Part shown: piece by piece, positions 11,761-40,700 of the stretch | Numbering within the stretch: position 1 is the first letter of the stretch | Layout: each line of letters opens with the position of its first letter | Notes under the pieces: model-generated | What the model saw: the letters and a program-made list of their open reading frames with translations, nothing else | Told to the model about the DNA's origin: nothing | Databases searched by the model: none | Translations under genes and position numbers: made by a program | Assembly: GCA_008632985.1 (NCBI GenBank) | Contig: QPGO01000165.1 | Coordinates: 124,001 to 165,369 of the forward strand | From: Psammoneis japonica | Lineage: Eukaryota | Direction of reading: 5' to 3' | DNA: 41,369 nt

Positions 11761-12029
11761 TCCTCCTCACTCAAGGCCACTGCAGCTGGCAAAGAGATTG
11801 CATGTTGTGATGCAAGTTCAGCTGATCCTTTTTGTGTTGTGTCAACAATTGCTTCACTCATTTTGAAATGTCTGTGCCAAAACAGGAATTTTGACAAGTT
11901 TCGATGTTTTTGAGATCTTTTTGAAAGATTGCCACTTTGTCACAGACAGTTGGGGGGATCAAGTCATGCCTTGAGTCCCACCACTTCTTTTCACTTCATT
12001 GTCACACAACACATCAGCCCTGAAAAGGC

Positions 12030-13730: not shown

Positions 13731-13829
13731 TTTCACAAAGCAAGGAGCAAACAATCCCCACCCTGGACATGTCTGCTCTCCTGTTCCCCACTTTGGCCAA
13801 GACATGGGCCCAGAACACTGGATGACTGT

Positions 13830-14340: not shown

Positions 14341-14399
14341 CATGAAAAAGGATGGGGGATGGAGCGCCATCACCCATTTGGTTCACAAGCATGTTTGGA

Positions 14400-18300: not shown

Positions 18301-18559
18301 GGCGGACACCCTCTCTTGCCCAGCAGACTGTCTTTCATCTGGCAGCATTCAACATCATGCAATGCTCCTGTTTGTTGACAATTCAAGTGTGCAGAGTCCC
18401 CTCAGAGATTGGTGTCATGATTTCATTGCTTGTTGAACAGGGCACAATTGTGGGCTTGTCTGGACCACCAATCACACGGCTTTTGAGTCTTGTGCTGGCT
18501 GCTTTCTTGGGCAGTGCAGCTTCAATGATGTCCACCTCTCACAACTGACTTTGACCAAA

Positions 18560-20580: not shown

Positions 20581-21091
20581 TTGACTTTTGTCAGAGCTCA
20601 AATGGTCGAAAGGAATCTTTCACATGAATTGTCAAAAATCATCATCATCACCATGAATGACCATGACATTCAGTGCCCTTGACGGCTCACTTGTTCCAAC
20701 CTTTTGGCAACACAAATGACACCATTGGAGTGGCAATCATTTGGTTTGTCATGATGGGGTCCCAATGCCAACATGAGTCACTCATGGTTGACTTGTGGTT
20801 GATTTTAGACATGGCAAGACTGCTCAGTGGCTTCTTCCAAACATTGACCATGGTGAACCCTTGTGGCAGAAACTGGGAAGAAACAACATTTCCATTGAGT
20901 CCTCCACATTGTTCATTTTGGCCATGCACGCCTCTAGTTTTGCCTCAGCCTTCAATCTGGACTCCTTGTGGTTCACTTTTGTGGTGACACGACACAAGGA
21001 CAATCCTTGTTTGCCAAATGATCTGTTGACATTCTGCTCACAAGCTGCCACAATTCATCTAATCTTTTATGATGCAGGTCAACATCGGTGC

Positions 21092-21647
21092 GACGTGTTC
21101 AAGTCCCAGGTGACGCACAAAACGACAATCGATTTTGAATATAAATTATGTATCCTCTAGTGTATGGAGCATTTTCATATAAAATACTTAAACGAATTGG
21201 CTTTTATTGGCCTCAAGAGCATGGGCATTTAATTAGTTTTTTGTGGGGTATTCAAGTCCTCATGGGATATGTATCATAAACTTCCTCAGTAGACTCAATT
21301 CTGATTGTACGTCAGTACATTTAATACTGCGATTACTTTGTAGGTAGAAAAATTACCAAGAAGCATCGTATAAAGATATATTTAGATAACGTCCAAATAA
21401 CGGCAGTAATTTCGCCGAAAATCATCCGTTGTGTTACGATTCGTTTAACGCAATGAAAAACATAAATGGCACAATAACAATGATTTTGCAACACTCACAC
21501 GAGTCTTGTTAGTGTTGCAAAACATACGAATTTGTATAAATCTATACTTTTGGTGGTGAAAATTCGTTCGTAAGTCAGAGACCGCGCAAAAATCGCGCAA
21601 ATGTCGTTTTTGTGCACGATTTGGGTCACGTGCGGCTGGAACACGTC
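21092..21647. mobile_element. Young 556-bp MITE (family GAC-2), 4-bp TSD GTGC
   Basis: Ends GACGTGTTCAAG... and ...CTGGAACACGTC. GTGC at 21088-21091 and 21648-21651. TpA-rich interior; homologous to 25553-26128. Confidence 0.93.
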
Positions 21648-22809
21648 GTGCATGTCATCGAATGCTTTGAATGGTGTGATGAAAGTGATTCACAAAAGTC
21701 ATCATAGAAGGGACTCGAAAGCGCTGTTGCATGTCTTGCATTTTTGCAGTGGAGATTCTGTCTCATTTGTGTCATGGCATAAAATCTGAACAGTCGTCTT
21801 GTGACTCGGTCTCATGCTGTGCAAAAAGACATGAAGTTGGTGCTCATGACCCAATGAATTTGTGTCTCTGATTGATGTTGCACTGCTGGTCATCTTCTGG
21901 GTCTGTTGATTGTGGCCTGTGTTGCGCCATTTCTGTGGTTCTGTGGGTCATCATTTGGCTCTTTCAAGACATGACTGCAATGTCTGTCTCTTGTGTGCTC
22001 CACATTTTTTTGCACAGCTGTGACTCTCACCACTGCCTTTTGCACCAGAAGACCCACAATCCTGTTTTTTCCAGGCTTTTGATTTTCCCAGTGGGGGTGG
22101 GGGTGGGGGGCATTGGTGGAGAGAGGTCATTCCTGCACAGACAGTGGATCACTCTCAGCATGTTTTAAATGATCATTCAAAAATGTTGCATCAGTCACAA
22201 GTGTGAAGCCAAAACAACTTTACAAGAACTCAATTGAAGTGTCCTCTGATCAACTGTGTTTTGATTTGCATGGTGAAGAGCAATGCCTTTGATTGGACAA
22301 CATTTCAACTGATTTCTTGAGAAGTTGACATTCAGATGTAGATGGACAGACAAACTGATGACAGCTGTTCTTGTTGCCCGTGGGGCTGTTCCACACAATT
22401 TCCACAAAATGACTCTCAGAGAGCCCCAGTGATTCCTGTTGGGTGCTTTTGTTGCACTGCTGGCACTTGTGGCAGTTGGAGCCTTTGTGAAGCTGATGCA
22501 TGCGGTGATTGGAGCCTCTTTGTCACACTGAATGACAGCCAAAGCAGCCAACTTCACATTGAAAATGACATGCCAAAGTTGCCATGTTGCAGCAAGCCCT
22601 TGAAAGCAGGAGCGCAGAAGCTGTTTTTGGTTTTGGGGTTGTCTCAGCCAGCAGCACATCATCAACCCCATCCAATGAGTTGCCAAATGGGCAAAGCCTG
22701 GCTGCAATGTGAGCTTTCTTGCTTGCTTGTTGGCCCCACTGGCTGTTCTTCCAAGTCTGGGGATCTTTGAGACAAGGGCTCTCTCTGACACTGCTTTGCA
22801 CAGTCAAGC

Positions 22810-23255
22810 TGCTCTCAATTTCTTGGATGACTTTTTCATCAGCAATGTCAAGGCAGCCATCAAATCTCAAACACTTCATGCTCAGTGGCAAATTAGCAAC
22901 ATTGCAAAGAAGGTTCCCAAAGATGGGGTCATTTGGAGTTCATGTTCTCCTGATGACAAGGACAATTTTCTCAAAAATGGAGCTCAATTTCTTGGATGAC
23001 TTTGTCATCAGCAATGCCAAGGCAGTCATCAAATCTCAAACACTTTGTGCTCAGTGGCAAAGGCATCATTCGTCACATGAACGAGAGCTCTCAGTCCATC
23101 CTTGCAGTCCATTTTGAGCATCAGCCACTGAAGGAAAGATGAGAGATGGTGAGACTCTCAATCAGCAACATTGCAAAGAAGGTTCCCAAAGATGGGATCA
23201 TTTGGAGTTCATGTTCACAAGATGACAAGGACAATTCTCAAGTGGAGCTCAAATT
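22810..23255. repeat. Local tandem duplication with an internal indel
   Basis: CTCAATTTCTTGGATGACTTT...GCTCAGTGGCAAA occurs at ~22814 and ~22983. AGCAACATTGCAAAGAAGGTTCCCAAAGATGGG...GGAGCTCAA occurs at ~22895 and ~23164. Confidence 0.9.
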
Positions 23256-23473
23256 CAGAAAATGGATGAAAGAGTCAAGCAATGCACACATGGAACAAGA
23301 GTGCTCAAACATGTCACAACAAAATGTGTCAGATTGTCTGTGCTTGGCTGGAATTGAAACAACTGACATTGCCCCCCACTCAAGCAAGAAAGCAATGAAC
23401 GGATTGGAGACATTTAAAAAGCAGGACAGAGAGTGATGGTGCACTTGCTCATGATCCCCAAGCACTGTTGTTG

Positions 23474-24960
23474 TCAGCAGCAAAATGTTTTGCAGTGAGC
23501 ACAGTTTAGCGTCATTTTCTGTTGATCAGTCAGCTGGTTTGAGAGCCACAAATTGGTGCCTTTTTCCAAGAATGAGTCCAGTGTGTGATGCTCCAGCTCT
23601 TTCTTGCACTTGTTGAGATGCCTTTTGTGTTCCTGCAATTTGTGGGGGTGATTTCCAAAAACCAATGTGTGCGTTGTCAGCAGTTTGGGGTGTTTGGGAC
23701 CAAGTTCCACATGAACACCAACACAGACACAGTCCGGCACTTCCATTCCCTGTGGCACTGCATCGTCATCATTGGCAATCCTCAAGTGAGCAACTCTTCC
23801 CATTTCTTGCAGCTTGACAAAGGTGTCTGCAAATTGTGCCTTGCCAACATGCGGCAAAGCAAGTGCAATGAGATGAGTCTTTTTGTCAATGCTGTTGCTC
23901 ACTGCCATGGGAGTTGCTGCCATGGCAGCCATGGCACCTCCCAAACTGTGACCTGCAAAACAAAGAGAATGCCCCTTGTGCCTTGGATCCTTGAGAAAAG
24001 TCAAAATCTCATGAACAATCTTGCTGCACTTGATCTCTCTGTTGTTGCCTTCTGGTTCAAACAAGTGCTGGTAAAAACCACAATGACTGTGATGTCAGTT
24101 CAACAAGCAACAAATGAGTGGCATCACTGCAAGATGGGAAATCAGCAAGAACAAAGCACATTGTGAACAACAGATTCTCTCCACATGCATGTGAGACTCA
24201 CATGGCGACATTGTCAAAATCATTCAGCACATCCGCAGGATTTGGAATGATTGCCAACTCCTTGAGCGTGTGGTGAATGTCTTGTTCATGGGCCTTGAAA
24301 TCTTGTCCCCAATCTCTCATGTTGGTGCTTCCCCAAAAGGCAATGGTCAGTTGCTTTGGTGCAGGACTCCTTGCCATCCCATGGATGGGTCTCGATTGTC
24401 ATCTGTGAAATCTAAGCTGGTCGTCCAACACTTCGTGTGTTGCTTCTTCATCTTCTTTTGAATTGGAGTTTTTATTGACAAGGTGCTGCAAAATTTCTAA
24501 ATCAAACTCGGGGTTGCATTTGCAAAGCAATTTCCATCTGGATTTTTTCAACCAGTCCATGTTGTGTTTGAGCCACTCCAACATTTCCAGTGCCATTCTT
24601 GGAGTTGTGCAAAAGAAATTAGGATCGTCAAGTGCACTCTTTCCATCAACAAGGTTGCTCCAATTGTTGAAGAGTGCAAAATCTTGAATCAGACAGGACA
24701 CTGCAAGCACCATTTGCACTTCACTGAAAAGCAAACGTTTTTCTTGTTGTGAATTGTCATCAACACTCTGTTGTAAATTGTCATGAGTTTCTGCCAAACA
24801 AGTTGTCGTTTCATCAACATTGGCGTTGTTGTTGCACTCCTCAACTGCATGTGCGGATTCCATTGGTGTGAAAAGCAATGAAAACAGGAGAAGTGCAAGC
24901 AGGCCCACTGGTGGAAACCACTGGTGCCCATTGGTCGTGGGCATTGTGCATGGTGGCATG
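23474..24960 (-). pseudogene. Class-3 lipase (alpha/beta hydrolase) pseudogene with a signal-peptide-like N-terminus and one intron
   Basis: Hydrophobic GLLALLLFSLLF near the start; IAFWGSTNMRDWGQDF (family VAFRGT...DW..D). A GTGAGT...CAG intron at 24087-24201 splices to NVAIHCGFYQHLF (HxGF motif). Nucleophile elbow FAGHSLGGAMA, LPHVG (PRVG) and RIANDDDAVP follow. Confidence 0.88.
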
Positions 24961-25552
24961 TGTGTCTTGGTTCTTTGACAGACTTGAAGACTGGGGAAGT
25001 CTCCAGCCATGCCAGTTTTGTTGCATCGCGTGGCAACAATTGTTTTTGACAACATTCATGAATGTGAGCCAAAACAACCAATCACATTGATGATGACATC
25101 AAAGTTGCCACATTGCAGTGTTTGAAATTTTGAACAAGAAACAATGCCAGCCAATCAAAAAGTGCACGTTGTGTCCACACGATGACTTGCGCAGGCTCTG
25201 CGCATGCCAGCTCCCATTGTAAAATTTTGAGCACGTGTCAAAATTTTGACATTTCAAGATGGTGGGGTCAACCAGCAGCAGCAACACCGTGAATGACACA
25301 CAACAGTCATGGTGCAGTGGCATCAACAGCGAATTGGCTCTGCCACTGCAGTTGCCATCTCCGTTGACTGCACCAAACAACAACAACAGATTGATGCAAC
25401 AAGAGCTGATGATGATGCACCCATTGGCTGCCACAGCATCAGCACCAGGCTCCACATTGAACCAGTTTCCAGCACCCACCGCTCCCATGACACAATCTCA
25501 TGCCTCATCCCTTTGCAGCTCAGAGCCAACAACTCTTGGCGGCCACATCCTT

Positions 25553-26128
25553 GACATGTTCCAGTTCCCCAGGGGATGCACAAAACGACAATCCGTTTTG
25601 AGCACAAATCATGCATCTCTTGTGTGCAGCATTTGAGCACAAAATGCTTGGGCGGGTGGGCTTTCACAGGTGTCTAGAGTGTGAACATCCAAATGGTTTT
25701 TTTGTTGGCACTCAACTCCTCATGGGACATGCATCACAAACTTCCTCTGCAGACTCAACACTGGTTCTGTGTCAGCACACTTTACACTGAGATTTCTTTT
25801 CAGGTGGAAAACCCACCAATGTCATCGCAGAAAGATGTGTTTGGGCAACATCCAAACAACGGCAACAATTTTGCCAAAAATCATCCATCGTGTTGCAAAA
25901 ATCATCTGTTGTGTTGCGGCTCATTTGTCGCAATGAAAAACACAGATGGCACAATGACAATGGCATTGCAACACTCACGCGAGTCTTGTCAGTGTTGCAA
26001 AACATTCAAATTTGGATGAATCCTTGCTTTTGGTGGCAAAAGCTCGTTTGTGAGTGAGAGACCACACAAAAATCACACGAATGTTGTTTTTGTGCATGAC
26101 TTGGGTCACATGCCAGCTGAAACATGTC
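25553..26128. mobile_element. Old hypermutated 576-bp MITE (family GAC-2), 4-bp TSD CCTT
   Basis: Ends GACATGTTCCAG... and ...CTGAAACATGTC. CCTT at 25549-25552 and 26129-26132. Colinear with 21092-21647, with TA and CG replaced by CA/TG. Confidence 0.92.
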
Positions 26129-26820
26129 CCTTGCTAAATGGGGCTCCTGGCCCACTCCTGTGGACAGCAACATGTTTCAACTGGCACGTGACAGATTTCT
26201 GCATGATTTCTGCATCCCTTGCACAAATTGCGCAGCCCTGCGGTGCAAATTGTCTGCCTGCCACCCCAGTCATTTGAGCTTCATTGTTCAGCTTCACGCC
26301 GCCAATCCAAAACAACACTCATCTGTCCATCTCTTTCATCTGGGAAGCTGGTTGACAGAAGAGACAAGAAAGGTCTCTTTTGCAGCTTTTGCTCTCTTGG
26401 CAATTAATTGGTTGGTTGTGAAAGCTTGTTTGTGAGTGAGAGACCGTGCAAAAACAACACAAATGTCATTTTTGTGCACGATTTGGGTCACTTGCCGGCT
26501 GGAACACGTCCCTTGCTGAGTGGGACTCCTGGCCCACTCCTGCAGACCGCAACATTTTTTAACTGGCTCGCGACAGATTTCTGCATGATTTCTGTCCCTC
26601 GCACAAATCGCGCAGCCCTGCGGCACAAATCGTCTGTCCACCACCCCAATTGTTTGAACTTCATTGTTCAACTTCATTGTTCAGCTTCACACCCGCTCAC
26701 TGTCTGGGTCTGCCAATCCAAAACAACATTCATGGGTCCATCTCTTTCATCTGGGAAGCTGATTGACAGAAGAGACAAGAAAGGTCTCTTTCATGGCTTT
26801 TGCTCTCTTGACAATCAATT
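26039..26820. repeat. Tandem duplication (~380-bp period) covering the MITE right end plus flank
   Basis: AAGCTCGTTTGTGAGTGAGAGACC...TCTCTTTCATCTGGGAAGCTG...TTTTGCTCTCTTG occurs at ~26039-26408 and ~26421-26820. The second unit carries a solo MITE end, GGAACACGTC|CCTT. Confidence 0.92.
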
Positions 26821-27309
26821 GAAATGTAAAGTGTGACGATTCAGGAAACTCGGTGCAAGTCAACACCGCAGGATTGAAGTCAAAAAGGAGGTCCGAAAGA
26901 CAACAAAACAAACAAAGAGCTGAGCCCAGTCTAAGAGAGAGTCATGATAAAACTGCAAAAAGATGCCAGCTTGATTCCTGAACAAAGGTGGCTAGATGCA
27001 AAAAATTGACACTGCTCATTGTGTGGAGTGTGCTGTGTGCTGAGTGATGAAACCCTGGCCAGTCGCACAATGCTTTGCACCTCCGACAAGAACAGTTTGT
27101 GACATGCAGTTTGCCTTGGTCTGGATGTGGAACATGAAGTGAAGGATCCACTTGTTGTGAGTGCGTGGAAGATCTCTCATGAACTCTGCCACCAACCTCT
27201 TTCAAAGCCAAGCATTGCAAAAAGATTGGCTTGTTCAAACGTCCCAATGTTTCCCCACCTGTCAACATTCCTTGAAACCAATTGATCCACCATGAATGAT
27301 GTTGTTTTA

Positions 27310-27515
27310 AACTGCACACCTTTCAGCTCTTGCTGACACCACTGCGAGAAATGAAAAAAAATCTTGTCAAACAGATCAGGGTGTCCCTTGTGTTGGCAGA
27401 TGCAGAGAGGTCTTCTCAAAACCCTTTGTCCCTGTTTGACAAAAGAAATTTCTTGCAATGCCGCACAGTTTGCCAGAGAACTCACACTCCCAACAAATGC
27501 GTGATCCGTGAGCTC
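27310..27515 (-). pseudogene. 1,3-beta-glucan (callose) synthase GT48 gene fragment
   Basis: DHAFVGSVSSLANCAALQEISFVKQGQRVLRRPLCICQHKGHPDLFDKIFF, then frameshifted ISRSGVSKS. Matches the GT48 core EHIFTGSVSSLA..MA.QE.SFVT.GQRVL..PL..R.HYGHPD.FD..F..TRGGVSK. Confidence 0.88.
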
Positions 27516-28062
27516 CACTGCTTGTGTCATCAACACACTCCAAAAAGTGAAGTGCGAGGCCCTTTTGTGGGGAAGAATCTGCGTGAAGACCAAGAAACAA
27601 ACAGAGTGAAGTGCTGGACTGCTGACGTCCGTTGAAAACACACCCACCATGAGCCGCGACGTCCAGAGCTTGCCTCGAACACTCCAAAGGTGCCCCACAC
27701 ATCAGATCCTTTCATCTGTGTTTGTTGTGAAACGAGTTGTGCACAGGTCAAGGGATGAGACGAGGGAAATGACAACAAACTCAACAAAACACACCGGAAC
27801 GGCAACAACAGCAGCACACTCACACACTGAAGGAAACAAAATCGACATTCTTGTGCGGAGCGGCACTTGTCAAAACAGCGCCAACACGCAATGGCACTGC
27901 AGGCAAATGCCAACAACATGCCGAGTGACTCACCTTGTGAAAAACGGTGACAACGACGGTGGACGCGACACAAATTTGCCGTGGTGGCTGCGCAAATTCT
28001 GCGTAGAATTTCTCGCTTTTTACCAGGAGCTAAAAAATTCGCACGGTGTGATTTTTTTTACA

Positions 28063-29038
28063 AGGTGGCACGGGTGCAAAAGTGTGCCAGATTCTACGTG
28101 CGCAGAGGTTTGCATGTTTTCTGCACAATCGCCAAAGTCACCTCGCCAACTTGAACCCTCTCCGAGATGATGGAAACCTGGACTTTTCACTTGACAAAGT
28201 GTTTGGAGCATTTCATCACACACATGTTGACTTGTTCATTGGGAGAAACTACAAGTTTTCATACATTCGTCGTTCATCAGAGCTTTCTAAATCTCGAACA
28301 TCAAGATTTTAGTGCCTTTCTGATTAGATTCGTCACATGTCTTCAGACACATGTGGAAACTTGTTGTTTCTCCCCACAAACAAGTCAAGGGGAGTGCAAA
28401 CAAGTCCTCAAAACACTCTGTCATGTGAAATGTTCAAGTTTCCATCGTCCGGGAGAGGTTTCAATGACTTTGGCGATTTGTGTAGAAAACACACTAAGTT
28501 CTGCACACCGTAAAATCTGGCCCACTTTTGTTCCCGCACATGCCACCCGTGGCACGGGCACAAAAGTGGGGCAGATTCTACGTGCGTGGAATTTAGTGCA
28601 TTTTCTACACAAATCGCCAAAGTCAACTCGCCAACTTGAACCCTCTCCCGGACGATGGAAACTTGAACATTTCACATGACAAGGTGTCCAGACTGCATGA
28701 TTGCACTCTTCTTGACTTGTTCATGGAGAGAAACTACAAGTTTCCACACGTTTTTGACGATGTGCACCGAATCTCATCAGAAAGGTGCCAAAATCACGAC
28801 GTTCGAGTTTGTCAGAGCTGCAGCAAACAAAGAATGTATGGAAACTTGCAGTTTCTCTCCACAAACAAGTCGAGGAGAGTGTGTTTGGGCAGTCTGGACA
28901 CTTTGTCATGTGAAATGTTCAAGTTTCCATCGTCCGGGAGAGGGTTCAAGTTGGCGAGGTGACTTTGGCGATTTGTGCAGAAAACACGCTAAGTTCTGCG
29001 CACGCAGAATCTGGCCCACTTTTGCACCCGCACCACCT
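28063..29038. mobile_element. Two abutting ~490-bp foldback MITE-like elements (28063-28547 and 28548-29038), each with ~200-bp TIRs
   Basis: Arm GGTGGCACGGGTGCAAAAGTG..CAGATTCTACGTGCG...ATCGCCAAAGTCA...GATGGAAAC...GAGAAACTACAAGTTT appears forward at ~28064 and ~28548 and reverse-complemented ending at 28547 and 29037. No TSD identified. Confidence 0.88.
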
Positions 29039-29399
29039 CGAGGGGGTCATTTGCTGCTTTTTTTTAGCTGACAGCTCGTGATTTGCATGATTTTTCCTGA
29101 ATTTCACCGTGCTTCACCGTGGTGAAAACATCAAGCCACAAGTCTGTGATGGAGGTGGGCCGTGCATCAACTCTCATTTGTTTTGTGTTCGTTGTGTGTC
29201 AAAGGTCACCTGCACATCAAATGTTTGCACACAGACCACTGCACTTTGGACTTGTGTTGACGTCACCGTCATGGTTGTGCTTTGATCATGGTGGCTGATG
29301 TTCTCATTTTCGTGCATGATCGGGGTGAATGTGAGTGATTTTTGTGTTCAAAAACAAACACCACAAATGTCCTCACTCAAATGCAACGGCAATTCTGGG

Positions 29400-30075
29400 G
29401 ATGGGCTCCAGTCCTGGGTGGGACTCTGTGTGACACATTCAGCCCGCAGAGTTCTGCATGCAAGCTCTGCAGTGCGAGAATTTAACCAATGGACATTTTC
29501 ATCTTCAACATCAAACAAACGGCCAAGTTTGTGGCACATTTGTGCCCATTCACACTCGATGCGTTCCAGCTCTGGGTGGGACCTCACACTGCTGACCTGT
29601 GACAAAATGTTTCAAAAATGTGCTGGGTGCATTCTTCAATGTCTGAAAAACACACCCGGGAATGACACAAACAATGCACTTCAAGTGTGAAGGAGGAGAT
29701 GCGTTCGCAAAATTGCCTCTTTTTCTGTTGGCGATCATTTGCATTTCAATTGCTGAACAATTTCACCACAGAGCTCGCACGCAGAATTCTATGGGCCAAA
29801 TGTCACAAAAAGTCCCACCTGGGACTGGAACCAATCACTCAAAGTTTTTGGAAATCTGCCTGCCCTGCGCCATTCTTAAGACATTTGCAAATGGCGCAGA
29901 AGAAAAAATGTCAAGAGTTGTTGAATGGATGGCCCAACAATTGTGCCACAAAATGACATGAAATTCCACCAAAGTCATGCAGACACGCACGTGTGCGTGA
30001 CATGCGGCATGATCCAAAAAACCATCGATGTCACAGTTCAGTGGCACGAGGTCCCACCTGGAGCTGGAACATGTC
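29400..30075. mobile_element. Old hypermutated MITE (family GAC-1), 4-bp TSD TGGG, containing a nested relative
   Basis: Ends GATGGGCTCCAGTCCTGGGTGGGAC... and ...GTCCCACCTGGAGCTGGAACATGTC. TGGG at 29396-29399 and 30076-30079. After removing 29558-29840 it is colinear with 19374-19763. Confidence 0.93.
29558..29836 (-). mobile_element. 279-bp GAC-1-related MITE nested in inverted orientation, 4-bp TSD ACTC
   Basis: Starts GATGCGTTCCAGCTCTGGGTGGGACCTC (reverse complement of the GAC-1 right end) and ends GTCCCACCTGGGACTGGAACCAATC. ACTC at 29554-29557 and 29837-29840; a single ACTC is at the matching site (~19526) of the young copy. Confidence 0.92.
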
Positions 30076-30639
30076 TGGGACAAACGCAGGGATGACCCGC
30101 CTTGAGGCAATCACAGAACCGTGTGCCAGATTGCAAGACGACTCACCTTTCTGATTTTTTTTGCACTGGAAACTTTGTGTGCGCCACACGCATCATTGCG
30201 AAAAATGGGTTGTCGCAATGACAGCAACAACAGCGACGTGTCCTCGACTGTTTGAGCATCACAGTCATTTGGTTTGTTGACTGTGAGAATGCACTCAGTC
30301 ATGAAAGTCCCCGGGTGAAGCCTCCATTCAAAAGCAAAACATCACGCCAATGCCAAGCTCTGTTTTTCAACCATCGTTTGATGCATTCGATCATGGAACA
30401 ATTGAGAGTTCATCCGGGGGACTTTCTTGATGCACTCGTGTTCCAAGGAGTGTCGCTGACAGCAAAATCCTTCTCCAGGAGCATTGCAAACGTGTTGTCG
30501 TCATTGTCAGTGTTGAGCGGCAATTTGTCAAGCAAATCGTGAATGTGGCACAACCGTCATCGCTGTCTGACATTTTGCCACTGTGTGCAACTCCTGCACA
30601 TGCCTCAAGCTGTGCCAGCTAGCCTGGCAGGTGCAGGGA

Positions 30640-31175
30640 CATGTTGCGATCCATGGGAGGTCTTCTCTTTCCCTCTTCCACACCACTCAAAGACCTCCCA
30701 GTTGGGAGTGCTTGCTCACTCCTGGATGGCCATCCCACATTTCCCGCTGATGCATGCACTGCATGCATTGAGACGATGGCGGGTGCTCGCTCATTTGCGC
30801 CATGCATTGCCAGGGCATTGTTTGAGCCGGATTTTGTCAACTTTCACACAATGCAATGCGATCACCTGTGTCATGTGAGAATCGGATCTCAAAGATCCAA
30901 AAGACATCTTGGAAGCCTGACTCAGAATTGTTTGTCTCAGCTGACTCAGGCAGACTTCGAGTGCAGGCACCGGCAGCGAACGAGTGCACGACAACACTCT
31001 TTGCAATTTTGCCTCAAGCACAGCACATCCACCTTTAGAATCACATGCACTGCAGTGCTGGCATGGTGCACTAACATGGGTTCATCTCTTTCACGAGGAA
31101 AGTTAATTGACAGGCGTGATGAAGAAGGACACTTCCATTCTTTCTATTGTCTCCAGACAACGGTCGAGTGCACCG
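30640..31175 (+). pseudogene. Decayed coding relic of an unknown multicopy family, homologous to ~26700-26835
   Basis: MGSSLSRGKLIDRRDEEGHFHSFYCL (~31075-31155) versus MGPSLSSGKLIDRRDKKGLFHGFCSL (~26730-26810) and a frameshifted copy at ~26320-26400. Confidence 0.55.
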
Positions 31176-31180
31176 ACAGC

Positions 31181-35300: not shown

Positions 35301-35412
35301 CAAAAATTTCATTTCGTTCTTAAAACCATCCATCACCGTACATGGCAAAGAGTTCCATACCCGCCGGTATATTTTGATTGGCTTGAAAGGTCAATTCCGT
35401 ATTGTACGTAAA
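32336..35412 (-). pseudogene. 5'-truncated multi-SET-like-domain protein gene with stops and frameshifts
   Basis: Repeated SET-like signatures: STIDGAGKGAFASRDL...INH...ATSDISKGDEILVDYG; SSIPNAGMGMYT...LANSH...IQAGMELFVQYG; STLPQAGKGAFATR...LNH...ATRDIQEGEEVFLDYG. In-frame TAA at 35320-35322 and 32992-32994. Paired frameshifts at ~33120-33195. A frameshift at ~32463 hides the true C-terminus VPRRTIEFVDDEYTSD...AFRHEIGIPDHLFPQAWMDM* (stop 32336-32338), which mirrors the internal repeat end. Confidence 0.85.
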
Positions 35413-35759
35413 TGCTCCCGCTTGTGGAGTTGTTCTGCTGTGCCAACAAATGACAAACACGAGCTTGAGGAGGCTTGTGTGCAATTTTGCAGCTGTGGCA
35501 TTGGGGGTGCCAATGACATGAGCTCCTGCCAGCTCCAACCTTGGCCCATGGTTTTTGAAACACTGGTGTCTCTTGCTCAGCTGTGAAAAGCTGTGGCATG
35601 TGGGGTCATGCAGCCCAGGAGCCAGGCTGCCTGCACTCCTTTTTGCAGATGGTGCAAAGCGCTGTTGTGACTGCACAAGGAGGGCAATTCTTGTGGTTGT
35701 GCCAGTGTTCTGAAGGTCTGGGTGTGCCCCTGGGAAGCTGCACATGAAGAGCTCAGCAT

Positions 35760-36565
35760 TGCCACCAGCGCCAGACGTGCATTGCTGCCCTCTGTGTGTC
35801 TTGTGGTTCTGGGAGCCTGCAAACTCAAGTTGGGCATCTCAGCTGGTGCAGCTTGGCAAACCATCTTGATTGGAGCCTGGCATGCAGACAACACTGTTGC
35901 CAAGAGCAGCTCTGCAGGGGAGGAGGGAAACATGCAGAAATGTTTTGCAGGAGCCATTCTGTCAATGGTGGCTGGGGCAGCCTGGGTTGTGGGAACTTTC
36001 TTTTGATGGGAGCCATGCAGCCACAGCAAGAGAAGATGTTTTTGTGATTGAGCATCTGACAGACATGGTTTGGACACAGAGAGCTGTCCTCTGCTCAAGC
36101 TCCAGTGAGCAGCATGCTCCAAAGGTGACATTGCACACATGCTTGTGCATCAAAACATGCGCCTCTTGCTTCAGACCCCATGTGCAGCACGGCTGTGTGG
36201 AAAGGCGCTTGTTGCAGGCACATCTCACAGGAGGTTTCATGCTTGGCTCTCAACCTTGGTTTTAATTTCTCAGCTGGCAGCTCAGCAAACAGTCTCAACT
36301 GCAGCTTGGTTTGTGGGTGGCGCTGTTGCCAAGAACCACTCTGGGGGGGACAAGCAGAAGGGTTTTGCAGGAGAGCTGTTTTGTCACGAGTGCTCAGGAT
36401 GGCCTGGGCTGCCGCAGATTTTGTTGATGAAAGCCAAGCAGCCACAGTGCAAGAGAAGATGATTTTGTGATTGAGCATCTGAATGACAAAGCCCAGGCAT
36501 GTGGAGAGTTGTCCACATGATCTCAGCTCCAGCAAGCAGCAGGTTCCAAAGGCGACATTGCACGG
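35760..36565. repeat. Degenerate tandem duplication (~425-bp period)
   Basis: TCTCAGCTGG...CTGTTGCCAAGA...TTTTGCAGGAG...CAAGAGAAGATG.TTTTGTGATTGAGCATCTGA...CCAAAGG.GACATTGCAC occurs at ~35835-36138 and ~36268-36563. Confidence 0.85.
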
Positions 36566-37047
36566 GCAAGTTCGTGTGCCAACAATGAGAAGCCTCAAGC
36601 TGTGAGAGTCATGAAAAAGCCATCAACCTCCCAACCAGCTGCGAGCCAGCCAAACCATGTGCCACTTGAGGGCCCAAGGCTCAAAACAAGAGGGGTGCAT
36701 CAACTCTCTTCTTGTTTTGTGTGCTCAAGAGCCTTTTGTTCTCTCTGCAAGTCTTTGGCATGTGCTCGCCTCTGTTGAGTAGAGTGTGGATTGAAAGGAT
36801 GCTGCAATGCCAGATGGGTTGATTTGTCTTTGCTGCAAAAGGTGTGCATTGTCCATTTTGATTGGATGCCCATGCAGAGAACTGAAAACCAGCATTGTTG
36901 CGAGCATTGAATGTAGAGAGAGAAAACCAATTGACATTTCCCAATGAACATGTAAATGCTGCAGTTAACTGGTCCAGAAAACACATGATGATTTCGCATT
37001 TGACATCCTGTTTTATCCACTCGATTTGCTTGTGCCTGCAACTCTAC

Positions 37048-37195
37048 ATTGTCAACCATTTGGCTGTCTTTGTGCCGAAGTAGAAATTTTAATTAGGGGA
37101 TTTTGTCAACCATTTGGCTGTCTTTGAGCCGAAGTAGAATTTTCAATTGTGGGATGTCGTTGACCATTTAGCTTGCTTTGGCTCAAAGCAATTTG
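37048..37195. repeat. 54-bp tandem repeat, about 3 copies
   Basis: GT(CA/TG)ACCATTT anchors at 37051, 37105 and 37159. Confidence 0.85.
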
Positions 37196-37616
37196 TTGAT
37201 GTGGGTCATGGGCTTGTCGTCAACCAGCCACGATCATGAAATCTTTGCCGAAAATCCGCGATGCCCAAAAGAACGTTGAGTGGATTCAAATGCCTCAGTT
37301 TTGAATGCTTGTTTCCATTGAAAACACAACCCAGATTGCTGCACATCTGCACATGCTTGTCTTTCTCTTTACGTCGCTCACTTTGTGTTGGCACCGCGTT
37401 GCCGCGTCAGAGCGTGTTGTTTGATTTTTTGTTTTCTTTCCCTCACTTTTGGCCTGTCAAAGGGATTGCCCTTGTTAAAATTGACCATTGTGCATTTGTC
37501 AGTCTACGAACATGTGGACAAACCTTAAAATCAACGCGAAGGGCCCATTTTTTTTTTGCACTGCGTGTCACATCCCATCTGACTGGACATTTGTGTCCCT
37601 GCCCAACCCGCGCTAC

Positions 37617-37710
37617 AGGAAGGGGTCATAAAATGTCCCCGAAGGCATTTTTGTCAAAATTCCAGAATCCGGATTCTGCCGCCTTCGGGACATAAAATGC
37701 ACCCTGCCCT
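37617..37710. repeat. ~94-bp hairpin (30-bp imperfect arms) with an internal perfect 16-bp palindrome; possible mini-MITE
   Basis: AGGAAGGGGTCATAAAATGTCCCCGAAGGC versus the reverse complement of 37681-37710, AGGGCAGGGTGCATTTTATGTCCCGAAGGC. CAGAATCCGGATTCTG at 37663-37678. Confidence 0.7.
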
Positions 37711-40700
37711 CAGCCCTCAGAGGGTGAGCGCTGAAACAATCGGTGGCACGCAAACAAGGACCTCCATTGACCTTGTGATGACTTCACAACATGTTGCAGC
37801 CTTGCCACTGTGCTGAATCACAACATGGCTGATTTCATTGATCCAGAAGCAGTTGAGTTCTCAGCACCAGACAGCGAGCATTGCTGACAAGACGATGCGA
37901 AACTGACAACTGCAATGGCTGGCAAGTCACTTGGCATGAGCACTGTGTTACAAAAAGCATGTTGTTGGCAAAGTTCTCAATGGTCACACACAAAACTGTG
38001 CATGCTTTGCAGCAATGCACTGCACTGTGCAGCAAGCGCTGCAAAGTGCAAGTGACAGCACACGTTGCATTTTTGCCAAGTGGTGTTTTGTCAAATGGCA
38101 GAAGCAGCTGTGTGTTTGCTGTGCATTGTGTTTCAAACTCTGTTGTGACATCCACTTTCAGCATCAACAAGAGTGACCACAACAGAGAACAAAATTTGCA
38201 CACTCCCTTTGCTGCAAAACCAACTCCATCATCTTGCTTGTGTCGAAAACTCTTCCGATTCTTGAATGAACAGTTCCGTCCATTGTGACCGCTGTCGCTG
38301 CCACTCCTGCCACTTGTCACACAGCCACAGCAGTTGGGCCTGCCACCACTGTGACGGCTGTCACTCAATGCCATTTGCCGTTCCAGGGATTTGGGCTGCT
38401 GCTCCTGCCAAGTTGGGTGGATTGTTGATTCCATCGGCAACGCGACAGTCAAGCCCGGTGGCCCAAGCCCAGCACTCACTTCACATGCTTGATGACAAGA
38501 ACAACCTGGCAGTCTTGAGCACCTTGAGACTTTCTGGAAACAGTTGGCTGAGTGCTTGTCAATCTGTTGAGAACAAACCGAAAATGCAGCGCAAGCGTGA
38601 GAAGCATTGGTCTGTCGGTTGGCAAGTTGAGTCTCATTGTTGGCATGTGGGTGTGTGGTTGGCAAGCATCGAAACCAAAAAGCAGTTCATGTCATTGACA
38701 ATCATGGTCACGAGCAAGCAATCTTGCCATTTTTGCAAACGTTTTGAGCAACCATTTTTCTTTGTTGCAGCTGTTTGCTCGCAGCGCAGCTTCTTTTTTG
38801 GCTGGCACAGCAGCAAAGCACCTCTCCCCTCTGCCTGCATGCCAGAGAGCCCACCACAATTTGGGAGAGTTTGTCAAGAGAAGAGCTTTTTTCCCATGAA
38901 GTGTTTCCACAGGGGGCGCCACTTTTGGGCTGTTGATTGGCACACATGTCAACTTGATTGAGCACCAAGATTGGTGCCAAGCATGGCACAGCAGCACGCA
39001 ATTCCATCAGCAAAGAACATCAGGCAAAGTCAACAATGCAAGTCCACCCATGTGCTCCTCAGAGAGTGCTTTGTCTCTGCAGGGTGGATGGCTAGTTAGA
39101 TTTGGCAAAGTTGCCTGATTTTGGCAAATTGAGAATCCCCACTTCCGGGTTACTTTGGGCGGCTTGGAACAGCCTGGTTGCTTGATTTTCACACATCATC
39201 ACCACGTGTCGTACGTACGAAGATGCGCGTTTTCACAGTGCATGACATCGCAACTTGAAGTGTGCATCCAATGCAACGCTCAATGAAACAACAAAAAGCC
39301 GCATCTCCCACCATGGGACTCGAATTTTATAAATCGATGGCCGCATCGTCAAGCAAGATGAGAGCACTGTCACAACACAATGAGACAGTGCTTGTTGCGA
39401 TGGTTGTGATGGATTTCTTGGCACTGTTGGCTGTCATGCCACATTTGGACATGCCAAAAACCAGTGTGTTTGCTGATTTCTGCAGGGTTCTCACGACCGC
39501 AGCACAAACATGTCTGCAATCGCTGGGTTCATTTCTGCTGCAGATGTGATCATTGGCATCTAAGGAACACACGCGTGCGAACAGCGTCAGATGCAGAAAA
39601 TGACAATTTGATTTCCAACGTCAACAATGCACCGTGTAGCATGACATGGCAAGGAGCAATGGAGTGTTTTTTTCAAAGAGAGAACAGGAGCTGATTTGTG
39701 CAGCAAACGCAACCATTGGATGCTGCAAACAATTGTTGGCACCTGTGACTCTCCCATTCGGGTCTTGGCAGTTTTGTCAACAGATGGTGTCATGCATCCG
39801 TCTCTTCAACATTTTTTGCTTCCTCATCAAAGCGACAGTTGCAACCACAAAGCCTCGTTCCTTGTCACCCCATGGTGTCAATGCAGCTTGGCTGCGTGAT
39901 GCAGCACGTGATGTGCTTTATCACGGGACAGTGCGTGAAATCCAACAGTGCAATGGACGGGAGCTCCGAACCATCGGCGATCGGATCTGAGATCAGATCA
40001 TCGAGCTCGTTCCAAATCCGTGCTCAAATGGATCGGAGCGGCTGTCCTTCCTTGCGTCTGTACGTCGTACGTACGGAAACTAAATTGGCCATTGATGGAC
40101 ACGCCAACCGGCCAACCACCCTGCAGAAGGGCAGTTTGTCATGTGGCCAGTGGGGCCCACTTGATGGTGCTGAGCAGCACACCACACACACAGAGGCAGG
40201 TCACATGAGAGACACACACACCAGAGCCAAGCGCAAGAAGCCCCACATTCTGCCATGTGGTCATGGTGTGGAAAGAAGAAGAGCAACAAAGGGTGGAAGA
40301 AGAAGAACATGAACAGAAAATGCTTGCGCTGCTGCTCACACGCATGTGTTGCAGCCACTGCTTTGCTTGGCCAGAGGCAGAGTGGCACACTGGGGCAAGT
40401 GGGGTGGGTGGTGGCACAATTGGGGTCCCCCCCCTGCTGGTGGGAGAGTGCGCACTTCGGTGAGCAAGAGTGCTCCAGCACTGACGAGCATTGCCTGTGC
40501 ATCCCAGTGCACAGAGGGCACCCACAAATGTGCGCCATTGTCAGCAACGCTGACTCACAGGGGGCACTGCAGCTGCTTGGCAAGACCATCAGCACAGTTG
40601 CCAAGAGCCCCAAGGCCCTGCAATGTCGTCAAAAAAAAGAAGACCCCATTTTGTTTTGACAACCAATCTTTCCAGGAGGAAAGAGGGGTTAGAGAAAAGG

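What the first reader, a model, noticed from the sequence alone, without database searches (positions are those of the whole stretch)
30121..30600. TpA loss is uncoupled from CpG loss and appears to precede it
Hand count in 30121-30600: 0 TpA but about 21 CpG. In 1201-1680: 0 TpA and 2 CpG. Similar CpG-retaining, TpA-poor tracts occur at ~27600-27990 and ~38200-38800. The window therefore has three states: untouched, TA-erased only, and TA+CG-erased. This argues that TpA erasure is a separate, faster process, not a by-product of 5mC deamination.
Basis: partly seen in the sequence, partly recalled or inferred. Interest (0 to 1): 0.75.

Follow-up and report, generated by a model that had tools for sequence, protein, structure and literature searches.

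The report
TA loss outruns CG loss
In the silent, gene-free DNA of this diatom-like genome nearly every TA has been rewritten to TG or CA, and this rewriting is a separate and faster process than the ordinary decay of CG, so some stretches have lost all TA while still keeping many CGs.

Summary
The counts are exact: 30121-30600 has 0 TA (33 expected) and 21 CG, and 1201-1680 has 0 TA and 2 CG. Across the window TA o/e is 0.14, CG 0.37 and CA/TG 1.73.

Unmutated paralogues inside the window give the direction. Of 74 TA sites, 3 are kept and 61 became CA or TG. Of 62 CG sites, 20 are kept. So "TA-erased only" overstates it: where a before-copy exists, these tracts have also lost about two thirds of their CGs.

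TA loss (A:T>G:C) and CG loss (G:C>A:T) run in opposite chemical directions. TA loss is at least about 3 times faster per site. No 500-bp window (0 of 82) lost CG while keeping TA. Block-level values form an ordered series from untouched to fully erased.

A strict time order is not proven. Weaker CpG methylation in the CG-keeping tracts remains a rival.

The only published analogue I found is TpA hypermutation in Bigelowiella (2026 preprint), which does not mention CpG.

This scan had already noted the same TA-before-CG pattern on other DNA of this genome (e1-7621614, e1-7616249). Here it was tested independently.

The parts
30121..30600 (.). Flagged tract: TA-free and CG-keeping. It is non-coding DNA upstream of the prolyl-hydroxylase gene.
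   Evidence: 0 TA and 21 CG. It lies inside the TA-free run 29877-30620. There is no Pfam hit and no paralogue in the window.
29065..31036 (.). CG-keeping, TA-erased block. It runs to within about 40-75 bp of the start of the prolyl-hydroxylase coding region.
   Evidence: TA 5 of 131.6 expected (o/e 0.04) and CG 67 (o/e 0.58). The first TA of the gene island is at 31036. Gene homology starts at 31112 and the nearest in-frame ATG is at 31076.
29400..30076 (+). TA-erased copy of the 391-bp inverted-repeat element, with a second, inverted partial copy nested inside it (about 29558-29832).
   Evidence: Self-BLAST pairs to 19374-19764 and alignment. Against the unmutated copy, TA is kept at 3 of 30 and CG at 12 of 34. 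Other genomic copies skip 29550-29844 (table 5).
27534..28004 (.).
   Evidence: TA 0 of 25.3 expected and CG 26 (o/e 0.84). At 27876 five other contigs read T where the window has C, so the window has CA where the other copies have TA. At 27981 fifteen contigs read A where the window keeps CG.
37701..39093 (.).
   Evidence: TA 1 of 87.9 expected and CG 30 (o/e 0.35). At 38376-38377 the window has TG where four other contigs have CA.
25001..27000 (.). CG-keeping, TA-erased block. It holds a mutated copy of the 601-bp element (25553-26128) and a tandem pair (26030-26410 and 26412-26821).
   Evidence: TA o/e 0.07 and CG o/e 0.43. Against the unmutated copy, 44 TA sites gave 0 kept and 38 CA/TG, and 28 CG sites gave 8 kept and 18 CA/TG. 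In the tandem pair CG is kept in both copies at 3 sites and in one at 11, with 9 CA/TG discordant sites.
19374..19764 (+). Unmutated 391-bp element with terminal inverted repeats, inserted into fully erased DNA. It serves as the before-state.
   Evidence: TA 27 (o/e 0.9) and CG 29 (o/e 1.52). Sharp edges. It interrupts repeat copy B relative to copy A. Its mutated copy at 29005-30338 lies in bins of very high contig depth (table 2).
21060..21660 (+). Unmutated 601-bp element with similar ends. It is the before-state for 25553-26128.
   Evidence: TA 47 (o/e 0.8) and CG 33 (o/e 1.56). High contig depth.
31037..35408 (.). Untouched gene island with two convergent genes: prolyl 4-hydroxylase (+, about 31076-32073) and a SET-domain gene (-, ORF 32995-35292).
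   Evidence: TA o/e 0.52 and CG o/e 1.05. Pfam hits PF13640 and PF00856 and tblastn. The non-coding spacer 32074-32328 keeps TA o/e 0.62 and CG o/e 1.1. TA o/e is 0.53 in all three codon phases of the SET ORF.
1..19373 (.). Fully erased domain (TA and CG both lost).
   Evidence: For 1-19000: TA 80 of 1275 expected (o/e 0.06), CG 170 of 1100 (o/e 0.15), CA/TG o/e 1.84-1.85. A dead ankyrin fragment lies at 13736-14311.
21661..25000 (.). Fully erased block containing a dead lipase gene copy (23477-24094, minus strand).
   Evidence: TA o/e 0.06 and CG o/e 0.17. Pfam Lipase_3, E=3.4e-14. Contig depth is close to the single-copy level, and one contig matches at about 86-88% identity.
26925..27533 (-). 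Dead fragment of a 1,3-beta-glucan (callose) synthase gene, with both TA and CG decayed.
   Evidence: tblastn to residues of about 1000-1300 of proteins about 1700 aa long. At 6 conserved Tyr there are 0 Tyr (3 Cys, 1 His). At 11 conserved Arg there are 4 Arg, all AGR codons, plus 2 Gln and 2 Cys from CGN-type codons.
28005..29064 (.). Partly erased block: an imperfect palindrome with arms 28063-28547 and 28549-29038.
   Evidence: TA 18 (o/e 0.23) and CG 42 (o/e 0.77). Arm comparison.
36901..37700 (.). Partly erased block.
   Evidence: TA o/e 0.27 and CG o/e 0.75.
39094..40081 (.). Partly erased block.
   Evidence: TA o/e 0.18 and CG o/e 0.84.
35409..36900 (.). Fully erased block that starts about 120 bp upstream of the SET ORF start.
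   Evidence: TA 3 (o/e 0.03) and CG 16 (o/e 0.16). TA-free from 35409 to 36263.

Best explanation
Two independent mutation processes act on the same silent, gene-free DNA.

- Process 1 rewrites TpA to TpG or CpA. This is an A:T>G:C transition at the A of a TpA, on either strand. Once hit, the site is no longer TA and is immune to a second hit. It is aimed at domains, because it stops at gene borders and spares non-coding DNA inside a gene island. It prefers RTAY flanks over YTAR flanks.
- Process 2 is ordinary decay of CpG to TpG or CpA. This is a G:C>A:T transition, presumably deamination of 5-methylcytosine.

Both start when a piece of DNA is silenced and then run side by side. Process 1 is at least about 3 times faster per site, and in the flagged tracts probably 4-13 times or more, so it saturates first.

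A tract with 0 TA and many CGs, such as 30121-30600, is therefore DNA that was exposed more recently or more briefly. The TA+CG-erased domains are the end state.

Shown here: direction, specificity, single-hit exclusivity, relative completeness, the ordered series of blocks, and domain targeting. Inferred: the chemistry (adenine deamination is the hypothesis of the Bigelowiella preprint), the role of 5mC, and exposure time as the variable that separates the states.
For: 1. Direction and specificity. In the four alignments of unmutated against mutated paralogues, per-A change to G by the 5' neighbour is TA 60 of 149 (0.40), CA 10 of 133, AA 22 of 198 and GA 11 of 113. Per-G change to A is CG 36 of 123 (0.29), TG 6 of 129, AG 3 of 81 and GG 7 of 73.
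2. Of 74 TA sites, 3 are kept, 61 became CA or TG, 10 became something else, and 0 became CG. Of 62 CG sites, 20 are kept and 0 became TA. Fisher p=1.4e-5. The rate ratio is 2.8 (95% interval 1.8-4.5) under simultaneous first-order decay.
3. CGs in the mutated copies are mostly ancestral: 20 of 24 are also CG in the unmutated copy. The rate of CpA becoming CpG is at background level. So the eraser does not manufacture the CGs.
4. Window-level L shape: 52, 18, 12 and 0 windows in the four quadrants, out of 82.
5. Block-level series, given as (TA o/e, CG o/e):
   - untouched elements: 0.8-0.9, 1.5
   - three partly erased blocks: 0.18-0.27, 0.75-0.84
   - four TA-erased blocks: 0-0.07, 0.35-0.84
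   - eight fully erased blocks: 0.02-0.07, 0.11-0.29
6. The CG-keeping class is also at an earlier stage of TA loss. All 7 surviving TAs in the fast RTAY context lie there (7 of 66 against 0 of 108, p=0.0009). That is not expected if the two classes differed only in methylation.
7. CG decay is active inside CG-keeping DNA. In the tandem pair, per-copy CG survival is 0.35 at 5.2% pairwise background divergence.
8. Domain targeting rather than a universal bias. The non-coding spacer 32074-32328 keeps TA o/e 0.62, and the SET ORF has TA o/e 0.53 in all three codon phases.
9. Erasure happened independently in duplicates. CA-against-TG discordant sites number 9 of 66, 14 of 112 and 27 of 144 in mutated pairs, against 2 of 61 in the unmutated-versus-mutated control.
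10. Precedent. TpA-only A:T>G:C hypermutation at about 6e-7 per site per generation, against a baseline of 3.5e-10, was measured in Bigelowiella natans (bioRxiv 10.64898/2026.01.13.699255; abstract, sections 11-12 and searched passages read).
Against: - There are few independent blocks: about 4 CG-keeping, 3 partly erased, 8 fully erased and 3 untouched, all in one 41-kb window. The window statistics are therefore autocorrelated.
- One block lies off the path: 2501-3500 has TA o/e 0.21 and CG o/e 0.30. None of its surviving TAs is in the fast RTAY context (no RTAY TA survives anywhere in the fully erased class), and it is a tandem array.
- At nearly equal background divergence (5.2% against 5.8%) the CG-keeping tandem pair keeps CG (3 sites in both copies, 11 in one), while the fully erased pair A/C keeps almost none (0 in both, 3 in one). 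Either CG was lost before that duplication or CG decays faster there. The second reading favours the methylation-intensity rival.
- The flagged tract must predate the element inserted next to it. Yet it shows at least as much CG (o/e 0.58-0.78) as that element (o/e 0.51, down from an ancestral 1.52). This fits element-focused methylation as well as it fits time.
- In the tandem pair about 4 of the 9 discordant sites are left for TA once the CG share is subtracted. Some TA loss therefore overlapped with CG loss rather than preceding it.
- No methylation data and no whole genome were available.
- The before-state of 30121-30600 itself is unknown.
Confidence: 0.6

Rival explanations
1. Different targeting, not different time. 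The TA-erasing process covers the whole silent domain right up to gene borders. CpG methylation is strong only on some pieces of it. CG-keeping tracts are then simply weakly methylated or unmethylated DNA, and may stay that way indefinitely. On this reading there is no temporal order.
For: - The flagged tract is flanking, apparently non-element DNA next to a gene start, where methylation could be low.
- CG o/e rises fairly steadily from 0.04-0.12 at 22-23.5 kb to about 0.8 at 27.5-30.5 kb as the gene island is approached from the left.
- At similar background divergence the fully erased pair A/C kept far fewer CGs than the CG-keeping tandem pair.
- The palindrome arms kept 0.75 of their CGs per copy at 12.2% background divergence, which is a slow CG decay.
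Against: - CG decay is demonstrably fast inside CG-keeping DNA. Tandem-pair survival is 0.35 at 5.2% background divergence, and the mutated element copies kept 8 of 28 and 12 of 34 CGs.
- The CG-keeping class also lags in TA loss in the fast flank context (7 of 66 against 0 of 108). A methylation-only difference does not predict this.
- On the right side of the gene island the DNA is fully CG-depleted from about 120 bp upstream of the SET ORF, so closeness to a gene does not protect CG.
Confidence: 0.27
2. Artefact of base modification. Modified bases at TpA and CpG in heterochromatin are miscalled during long-read base-calling and polishing, so the erasure exists in the assembly and not in the DNA.
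For: - Motif-linked transition errors of this kind are known for modified motifs in nanopore assemblies (recalled, not from a call).
- The library types of runs X1-X3 are not on record.
Against: - Outcomes are mutually exclusive. Of 74 TA sites, 0 read CG and only 3 read TA. Of 62 CG sites, 0 read TA. Random resolution of strand-specific miscalls should give many double and null outcomes.
- Read-derived contigs at k-mer depth 31-36 match two erased tracts with 0 differences (table 8).
- The erased DNA also carries indels, transversions, truncated genes and Tyr>Cys/His and Arg>Gln/Cys codon changes.
- The same signature appears at the ends of two metagenome contigs from another organism.
Confidence: 0.03
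3. Genome-wide mutation bias plus selection. TA>TG/CA is simply the organism's general mutation spectrum. Genes keep TA by purifying selection, and the untouched elements are only very young.
For: - Erased DNA is everything outside genes and two young elements.
Against: - The non-coding spacer between the two convergent genes keeps TA o/e 0.62 (14 TA in 255 bp).
- The 116 bp upstream of the SET ORF keeps TA o/e 0.67.
- TA o/e is the same (0.53) in the synonymous-rich 3-1 codon phase as in the other phases.
- The borders are sharp.
Confidence: 0.04
4. RNA-level A-to-I editing of double-stranded transcripts, copied back into DNA by retrotransposition.
For: - ADAR enzymes favour a U before the edited A (stated in section 12 of the Bigelowiella preprint).
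Against: - The affected DNA is contiguous over tens of kb. It includes small inverted-repeat elements, host-gene fragments and intergenic DNA up to gene starts.
- Specificity for TA over AA is about 4-fold per A, and TA loss is near total.
- No reverse-transcriptase domain was found among 183 ORFs.
Confidence: 0.02

Closest known systems
TpA-restricted hypermutation of integrated giant-virus and virophage DNA in Bigelowiella natans (Mettrop et al., bioRxiv 10.64898/2026.01.13.699255, 2026)
   Same: Both show A:T>G:C transitions confined to TpA, giving TpG or CpA. Both are local, not genome-wide. Both leave TpA depletion with CpA+TpG enrichment in clustered windows. Both affect foreign or repeat-like DNA (abstract, sections 11-12 and searched passages read).
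   Different: - That case is a rhizarian alga. Here the named relatives of the flanking genes are diatoms.
- There TpA is only partly depleted (Rho 0.45 in the viral region). Here loss is near total (o/e 0-0.07) over tens of kb.
- Here dead host-gene fragments and DNA up to gene starts are also hit.
- The preprint's main text has 0 occurrences of 'CpG', so the relation to CG decay tested here is not addressed there. Its supplements were not seen.
Repeat-induced point mutation (RIP) of Neurospora and other ascomycetes
   Same: Both are dense, dinucleotide-specific transition mutation of repeated or silent DNA. Both spare neighbouring genes and kill transposons and gene copies (RIP features from the abstract of PMC2621366 seen in the listing, otherwise recalled).
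   Different: The direction is opposite. RIP turns CpA into TpA, so TpA rises. Here TpA is destroyed and CpA/TpG rise to o/e 1.73. Dependence on duplication or on a sexual cycle could not be tested.
CpG decay by deamination of 5-methylcytosine in methylated DNA (vertebrates, plants, diatom transposons)
   Same: The CG>TG/CA part of the signature is the same: 36 of 123 Gs after C changed to A, against 16 of 283 in the other contexts combined. Arg CGN codons were read as Gln or Cys.
   Different: It explains only the slower half of the pattern. It cannot produce A:T>G:C at TpA. Methylation itself was not measured here.

Membership tests
TpA-restricted A:T>G:C hypermutation (Bigelowiella type) | Mutations are almost only A>G / T>C and fall on TpA. 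| tested here: met
   Per-A change is 0.40 at TpA against 0.075-0.11 at CpA, ApA and GpA. 61 of 74 TA sites became CA or TG.
TpA-restricted A:T>G:C hypermutation (Bigelowiella type) | TpA depletion is coupled to CpA+TpG enrichment in clustered windows. | tested here: met
   In 1-19000 TA o/e is 0.06 with CA/TG o/e 1.84-1.85. 70 of 82 windows have TA o/e below 0.3 and they fall into a few contiguous blocks.
TpA-restricted A:T>G:C hypermutation (Bigelowiella type) | It is local: confined to particular regions (foreign or repeat DNA) while the rest of the genome has a normal spectrum. | tested here: met
   The gene island 31037-35408, including its non-coding spacer, keeps TA o/e 0.52-0.62. Borders are sharp.
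TpA-restricted A:T>G:C hypermutation (Bigelowiella type) | A de novo rate about 1000 times baseline is measured in mutation-accumulation lines, in only some lines. | not testable with these tools
   No resequenced lines are available. Only contigs of one sample were on hand.
Repeat-induced point mutation (RIP) | C:G>T:A transitions, mainly CpA>TpA, so that TpA rises and CpA/TpG fall. | tested here: not met
   The opposite holds: TA o/e 0.14 and CA/TG o/e 1.73. The direction TA>CA/TG is shown by paralogues.
Repeat-induced point mutation (RIP) | It is triggered by sequence duplication. | tested here: inconclusive
   Duplicates were erased independently after duplication. However, 22-25 kb is erased at near single-copy contig depth and has only a paralogue of about 86-88% identity. 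Two high-copy elements are untouched.
CpG decay through 5-methylcytosine deamination | CpG>TpG/CpA transitions occur far above background. | tested here: met
   Per-G change is 0.29 at CpG against 0.04-0.10 elsewhere. Tandem-pair survival is 0.35 at 5.2% background divergence.
CpG decay through 5-methylcytosine deamination | The affected CpGs are methylated. | not testable with these tools
   No methylation data are available. The runs are held only as contigs.
ADAR-type RNA editing footprint in retro-copies | It is restricted to transcribed, retro-copied sequences and has loose 5' neighbour preference. | tested here: not met
   The affected domains are contiguous and include inverted-repeat elements, host-gene fragments and intergenic DNA. 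No reverse-transcriptase hit was found among 183 ORFs.

The most novel reading that the evidence does not exclude
Silent DNA in this diatom carries two independent, chromatin-aimed mutators with very different speeds. One is a near-saturating TpA eraser, possibly a DNA adenine deaminase, that prefers RTAY flanks and reaches right up to gene start codons. The other is slower 5mC-type CpG decay. Together, the TA state (including the slow YTAR sites) and the CG state of any tract would form a two-speed clock that dates when that DNA was silenced. The TA-free, CG-rich tracts would mark the most recently captured DNA, which is where the eraser is most likely still active and could be caught biochemically.
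Probability: 0.45. Interest if true: 0.8.

Novelty: new variant of a known kind. Interest (0 to 1): 0.6.

Why it matters
- It rules out one family of models. TA loss cannot be a side effect of cytosine methylation, deamination or its repair. The two changes go in opposite directions, differ in speed, never convert one dinucleotide into the other, and separate in space.
- It puts a number on the difference: at least about 3-fold per site.
- It shows that the eraser is aimed at domains, not at the whole genome.
- It points to the TA-free, CG-rich tracts as the places to look for the active process with native-read modification calls, chromatin maps or mutation-accumulation lines.
- If the time reading holds, TA and CG states give a relative clock for the spread of silent chromatin towards genes.
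- The only published analogue I found, in a different supergroup, says nothing about CpG. Four full-text searches found no report for diatoms.

Tried and rejected
- Rfam gave 0 matches.
- Pfam on 183 stop-to-stop ORFs of at least 90 aa gave only ankyrin, lipase, a glucan-synthase fragment, SET and 2OG oxygenase, plus a few weak hits. No transposase or reverse transcriptase was found.
- The 342-aa ORF 789-1814 in the comparison tract has no homologue.
- The 283-aa ORF 37838-38686 has one hit to a repetitive 2002-aa protein, which I judged uninformative.
- An exact-pattern scan of metagenome contigs for the 391-bp element gave 0 matches.
- blastn and tblastx of all erased DNA against the 23 related metagenome loci gave no hits. 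No before-state for 30121-30600 was found.
- Look-ups in the scan's notes by sequence and by words gave nothing.
- Sequencing runs: no RNA holder is listed. Only three runs of one sample are available, held as contigs.
- The difference table of read laying shows 40 of about 1990 places. I classed those 40, and 17 fall on TA/CG/CA/TG pairs, too few to use beyond three single sites.
- Summed contig depth correlates with CG o/e among 22 TA-erased bins (rho 0.62). The tool warns that depth is not copy number, and CG loss itself lowers similarity, so I do not count this as evidence.
- Strand-coherent runs of outcomes were not found. The runs test gave P=0.41 for 38 TA outcomes and 0.68 for 18 CG outcomes. 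CA-against-TG dispersion is 1.24 in erased DNA against 1.31 in the gene island.
- The prediction that RTAR sites go to CA and YTAY sites go to TG was only half met (16:4 and 6:4, Fisher p=0.38).
- The trio alignment of the tandem units with the unmutated copy has only 1 TA site, so it has no power on order.
- Aligning the 182-bp tandem units added nothing.
Full report
**1. Observation**

- 30121-30600 has 0 TA where base composition predicts 33.2. It has 21 CG (o/e 0.78), and CA and TG at o/e 1.84 and 1.68.
- 1201-1680 has 0 TA and 2 CG.
- 27600-27990 has 0 TA and 22 CG.
- 38200-38800 has 0 TA and 20 CG.
- In 5000 shuffles of the flagged tract the minimum was 19 TA.

Over the whole window TA o/e is 0.14, CG o/e 0.37, and CA and TG both 1.73.

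For scale, I fetched 23 metagenome loci that encode relatives of the neighbouring prolyl-hydroxylase gene. In them, 295 of 298 windows of 500 bp have TA o/e of at least 0.3.

**2. What lies in the window**

No genome is held. The named relatives of the two gene families used here are diatoms or other stramenopiles. That fits the earlier notes of this scan, which call the genome a diatom.

The only intact-looking genes form one island, 31037-35408:
- a prolyl 4-hydroxylase on the plus strand, with homology over 31112-32073
- a SET-domain gene on the minus strand, ORF 32995-35292

Two small elements are sharply bounded and unmutated. Both sit inside erased DNA.
- 19374-19764: 391 bp with terminal inverted repeats, TA o/e 0.9, CG o/e 1.52.
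- 21060-21660: 601 bp, TA o/e 0.8, CG o/e 1.56.

Everything else is TA-erased. That DNA contains dead pieces of host-type genes:
- ankyrin, 13736-14311
- lipase, 23477-24094
- a glucan synthase fragment of about 600 bp, 26925-27533

It also contains repeat copies.

The flagged tract is non-coding DNA. It lies between a mutated, nested copy of the 391-bp element (29400-30076) and the prolyl-hydroxylase start. The TA-free zone ends at 31036, and the nearest in-frame ATG before the homology is at 31076.

**3. Direction and specificity, from paralogues inside the window**

Self-BLAST pairs the unmutated elements with mutated copies in CG-keeping DNA: 21092-21647 with 25553-26128, and 19374-19764 with pieces of 29400-30076.

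Summed over the four alignments:
- Of 74 TA sites, 3 are kept, 61 became CA or TG, 10 became something else, and none became CG.
- Of 62 CG sites, 20 are kept, 35 became CA or TG, and none became TA.

Per base, the changes are as follows:

| Change | Target context | Other contexts |
|---|---|---|
| A>G, by 5' neighbour | 0.40 after T | 0.075-0.11 after C, A or G |
| G>A, by 5' neighbour | 0.29 after C | 0.04-0.10 after T, A or G |

So there are two context-specific transitions of opposite direction, and both end in CA/TG.

The CGs present in the mutated copies are mostly ancestral (20 of 24). The rate of CpA becoming CpG is at background level. The TA process therefore does not create the CGs.

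In the glucan-synthase fragment, 6 conserved tyrosines are now 3 Cys, 1 His and 2 other residues. The only arginines left at 11 conserved Arg positions use AGR codons. CGN-type positions now read Gln (CAA, CAG) or Cys (TGT, TGC).

**4. Is TA loss uncoupled from CG loss, and faster?**

Yes on both counts.
- TA survival of 3 of 74 against CG survival of 20 of 62 gives Fisher p=1.4e-5.
- Under simultaneous first-order decay the rate ratio is 2.8 (95% interval 1.8-4.5). This is a lower bound, because TA is saturated.
- In the flagged tracts even the slow-context TAs are gone while CG o/e is still 0.7-0.84. If their starting CG o/e was 1.0-1.5, this implies a ratio of roughly 4-13. That last figure is my arithmetic on the values, not a fitted result.

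**5.

With cut-offs TA o/e 0.3 and CG o/e 0.4, the 82 windows split as follows:

| | CG low | CG kept |
|---|---|---|
| TA low | 52 | 18 |
| TA kept | 0 | 12 |

At the level of natural blocks the values form a series:

| State | Blocks | TA o/e | CG o/e |
|---|---|---|---|
| Untouched elements | 2 | 0.8-0.9 | about 1.5 |
| Partly erased | 3 | 0.18-0.27 | 0.75-0.84 |
| TA-erased, CG-keeping | 4 | 0-0.07 | 0.35-0.84 |
| Fully erased | 8 | 0.02-0.07 | 0.11-0.29 |

One block is off the path. 2501-3500 has TA o/e 0.21 and CG o/e 0.30. It is a 182-bp tandem array. None of its surviving TAs is in the fast RTAY context, because no RTAY TA survives anywhere in the fully erased class.

**6.

There are not three discrete states. 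Among the 61 windows with TA o/e below 0.15, CG o/e runs from 0 to 0.8, with most below 0.3.

"TA-erased only" is not CG-intact:
- The two mutated copies with a known before-state kept 8 of 28 and 12 of 34 CGs.
- Their ancestors were CG-rich (o/e about 1.5). A present o/e of 0.4-0.8 can therefore hide a loss of a half to two thirds.

Inside CG-keeping DNA the tandem pair 26030-26410 / 26412-26821 has CG in both copies at 3 sites and in one copy at 11. That gives a per-copy survival of 0.35, while non-YR sites differ by only 5.2%. CG decay there is about 40 times the background per site (my arithmetic).

The same pair has 9 CA-against-TG discordant sites. About 5 are expected from CG that was lost in both copies. 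The remaining ~4 suggest that some TA loss also came after the duplication, overlapping with CG loss. "Concurrent but faster" fits better than "strictly before".

**7. Time or targeting?**

Evidence for time (or total exposure):
- The CG-keeping class is also behind in TA loss. All 7 surviving TAs in the fast RTAY context lie there (7 of 66 against 0 of 108, p=0.0009).
- Mixed-context TAs are about twice as dense there.
- A difference in methylation alone does not predict either of these.

Evidence for targeting:
- CG o/e climbs steadily towards the gene island on the left.
- The flagged tract must be older than the element inserted beside it, yet it has at least as much CG.
- At similar background divergence, the fully erased pair A/C kept 0 sites in both copies and 3 in one, against 3 and 11 for the tandem pair.

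On the right of the island the DNA is fully CG-depleted from about 120 bp upstream of the SET ORF. Nearness to a gene therefore does not protect CG.

I cannot settle this without methylation data. I put about 0.6 on exposure time and 0.27 on targeting.

**8. The eraser is aimed, not universal**

- The 255-bp non-coding spacer between the convergent genes keeps 14 TA (o/e 0.62).
- The 116 bp upstream of the SET ORF keeps 7 TA (o/e 0.67).
- TA o/e is 0.53 in each codon phase of the SET ORF.
- Two young elements inside erased DNA are untouched. So the process is either episodic or had not yet reached them.

**9. Flank preference**

Of the 174 TAs surviving in erased DNA, 51% are YTAR and 4% are RTAY. 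In untouched DNA (224 TAs) the shares are 15% and 37%. If the survivors were regenerated at random from CA/TG, the shares would be 23% and 25% (chi-square p about 7e-16).

Reverse-complement contexts agree closely, given as the ratio of observed to predicted:
- ATAC 0.09 and GTAT 0.10
- CTAA 2.47 and TTAG 2.47
- ATAT 0

The scan had noted this rule on other DNA of this genome. I reached it here independently.

**10. Artefact check**

A base-calling artefact from modified bases could mimic TA>TG/CA. The evidence against it:
- Outcomes are mutually exclusive: 0 of 74 TA read CG, 3 of 74 read TA, and 0 of 62 CG read TA.
- The accompanying decay is real: indels, truncations and codon changes.
- Read-derived contigs match two erased tracts exactly.
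- The same signature appears at the ends of two metagenome contigs of another organism. In L012 8001-9075 and L016 5001-5689, TA o/e is 0.05-0.32, CG o/e 0-0.37 and CA/TG o/e 1.5-2.0.

The library type of the runs is not on record, so this rival is not fully closed.

**11. Comparison with what is known**

Four full-text searches found one relevant paper, the 2026 preprint on Bigelowiella natans.
- It measured TpA-only A:T>G:C hypermutation at about 6e-7 per site per generation in two integrated viral regions, in some lines only.
- It proposed an ADAT2-like adenine deaminase.
- Its main text has no occurrence of "CpG" or "diatom". I could not see its supplements.

RIP runs in the opposite direction. 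CpG decay accounts for only the slower half of the pattern.

The present finding adds to the Bigelowiella-type process a second host lineage, near-total erasure of whole silent domains, and the kinetic separation from CG decay. The scan's own earlier notes reached the same TA-before-CG reading on other DNA of this genome (e1-7621614, e1-7616249). Those notes are unchecked AI notes, and I did not use them as evidence.

**12. Verdict**

The two processes are separate and TA loss is the faster one. The "three states" are points on a continuum, the CG-keeping tracts are not CG-intact, and temporal order is likely but unproven.

Noticed in passing
31433-31513: A 38-bp tandem duplication (2.1 copies, 95% match) sits where the prolyl-hydroxylase homology jumps frame. 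The two tblastn segments overlap by about 14-35 query residues, depending on the homologue, at 31420-31486. The gene may be freshly broken, or this may be an allele or an assembly variant.
   Followed up: partly
19374-19764, 21060-21660, 29400-30076: Two families of small inverted-repeat elements have similar ends. The bins holding the unmutated 601-bp element (21001-21667) and the mutated copy of the 391-bp element (29005-30338) have very high summed contig depth (15,000-43,000, against about 130 in single-copy DNA). The 391-bp copy appears to sit between a duplicated target of about 8-9 bp, judged against the empty site at about 12829. The copy at 29400-30076 holds a second, inverted copy nested inside it.
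   Followed up: partly
whole window, erased DNA: The TAs that survive follow a flank rule. YTAR contexts persist (89 of 174). RTAY contexts are almost gone (7 of 174), and all 7 lie in CG-keeping blocks. ATAT is absent.
   Followed up: yes
L012 8001-9075 and L016 5001-5689: Two metagenome contigs carry a prolyl hydroxylase 61-71% identical to the window's. Each ends in a sharply bounded block with the same TA- and CG-erased, CA/TG-rich signature. The process is therefore probably not confined to this genome.
   Followed up: partly
23477-24884: A dead lipase-type gene copy lies in fully erased, near single-copy DNA. One contig of the same sample matches it at about 86-88% identity and may be the intact parent gene. 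Its sequence could not be retrieved.
   Followed up: no
28063-29038: An imperfect palindrome of about 1 kb (arms 78% alike) is only partly TA-erased (TA o/e 0.23). It shows slow CG decay relative to its background divergence.
   Followed up: partly
22001-30500: CG o/e rises almost monotonically from 0.04 to about 0.8 over 8 kb towards the gene island on its left. On its right there is no such gradient.
   Followed up: no
35293-35408: Only about 116 bp of untouched DNA separates the SET-domain ORF start from fully erased DNA. Either its promoter is very compact or it lies in erased sequence.
   Followed up: no
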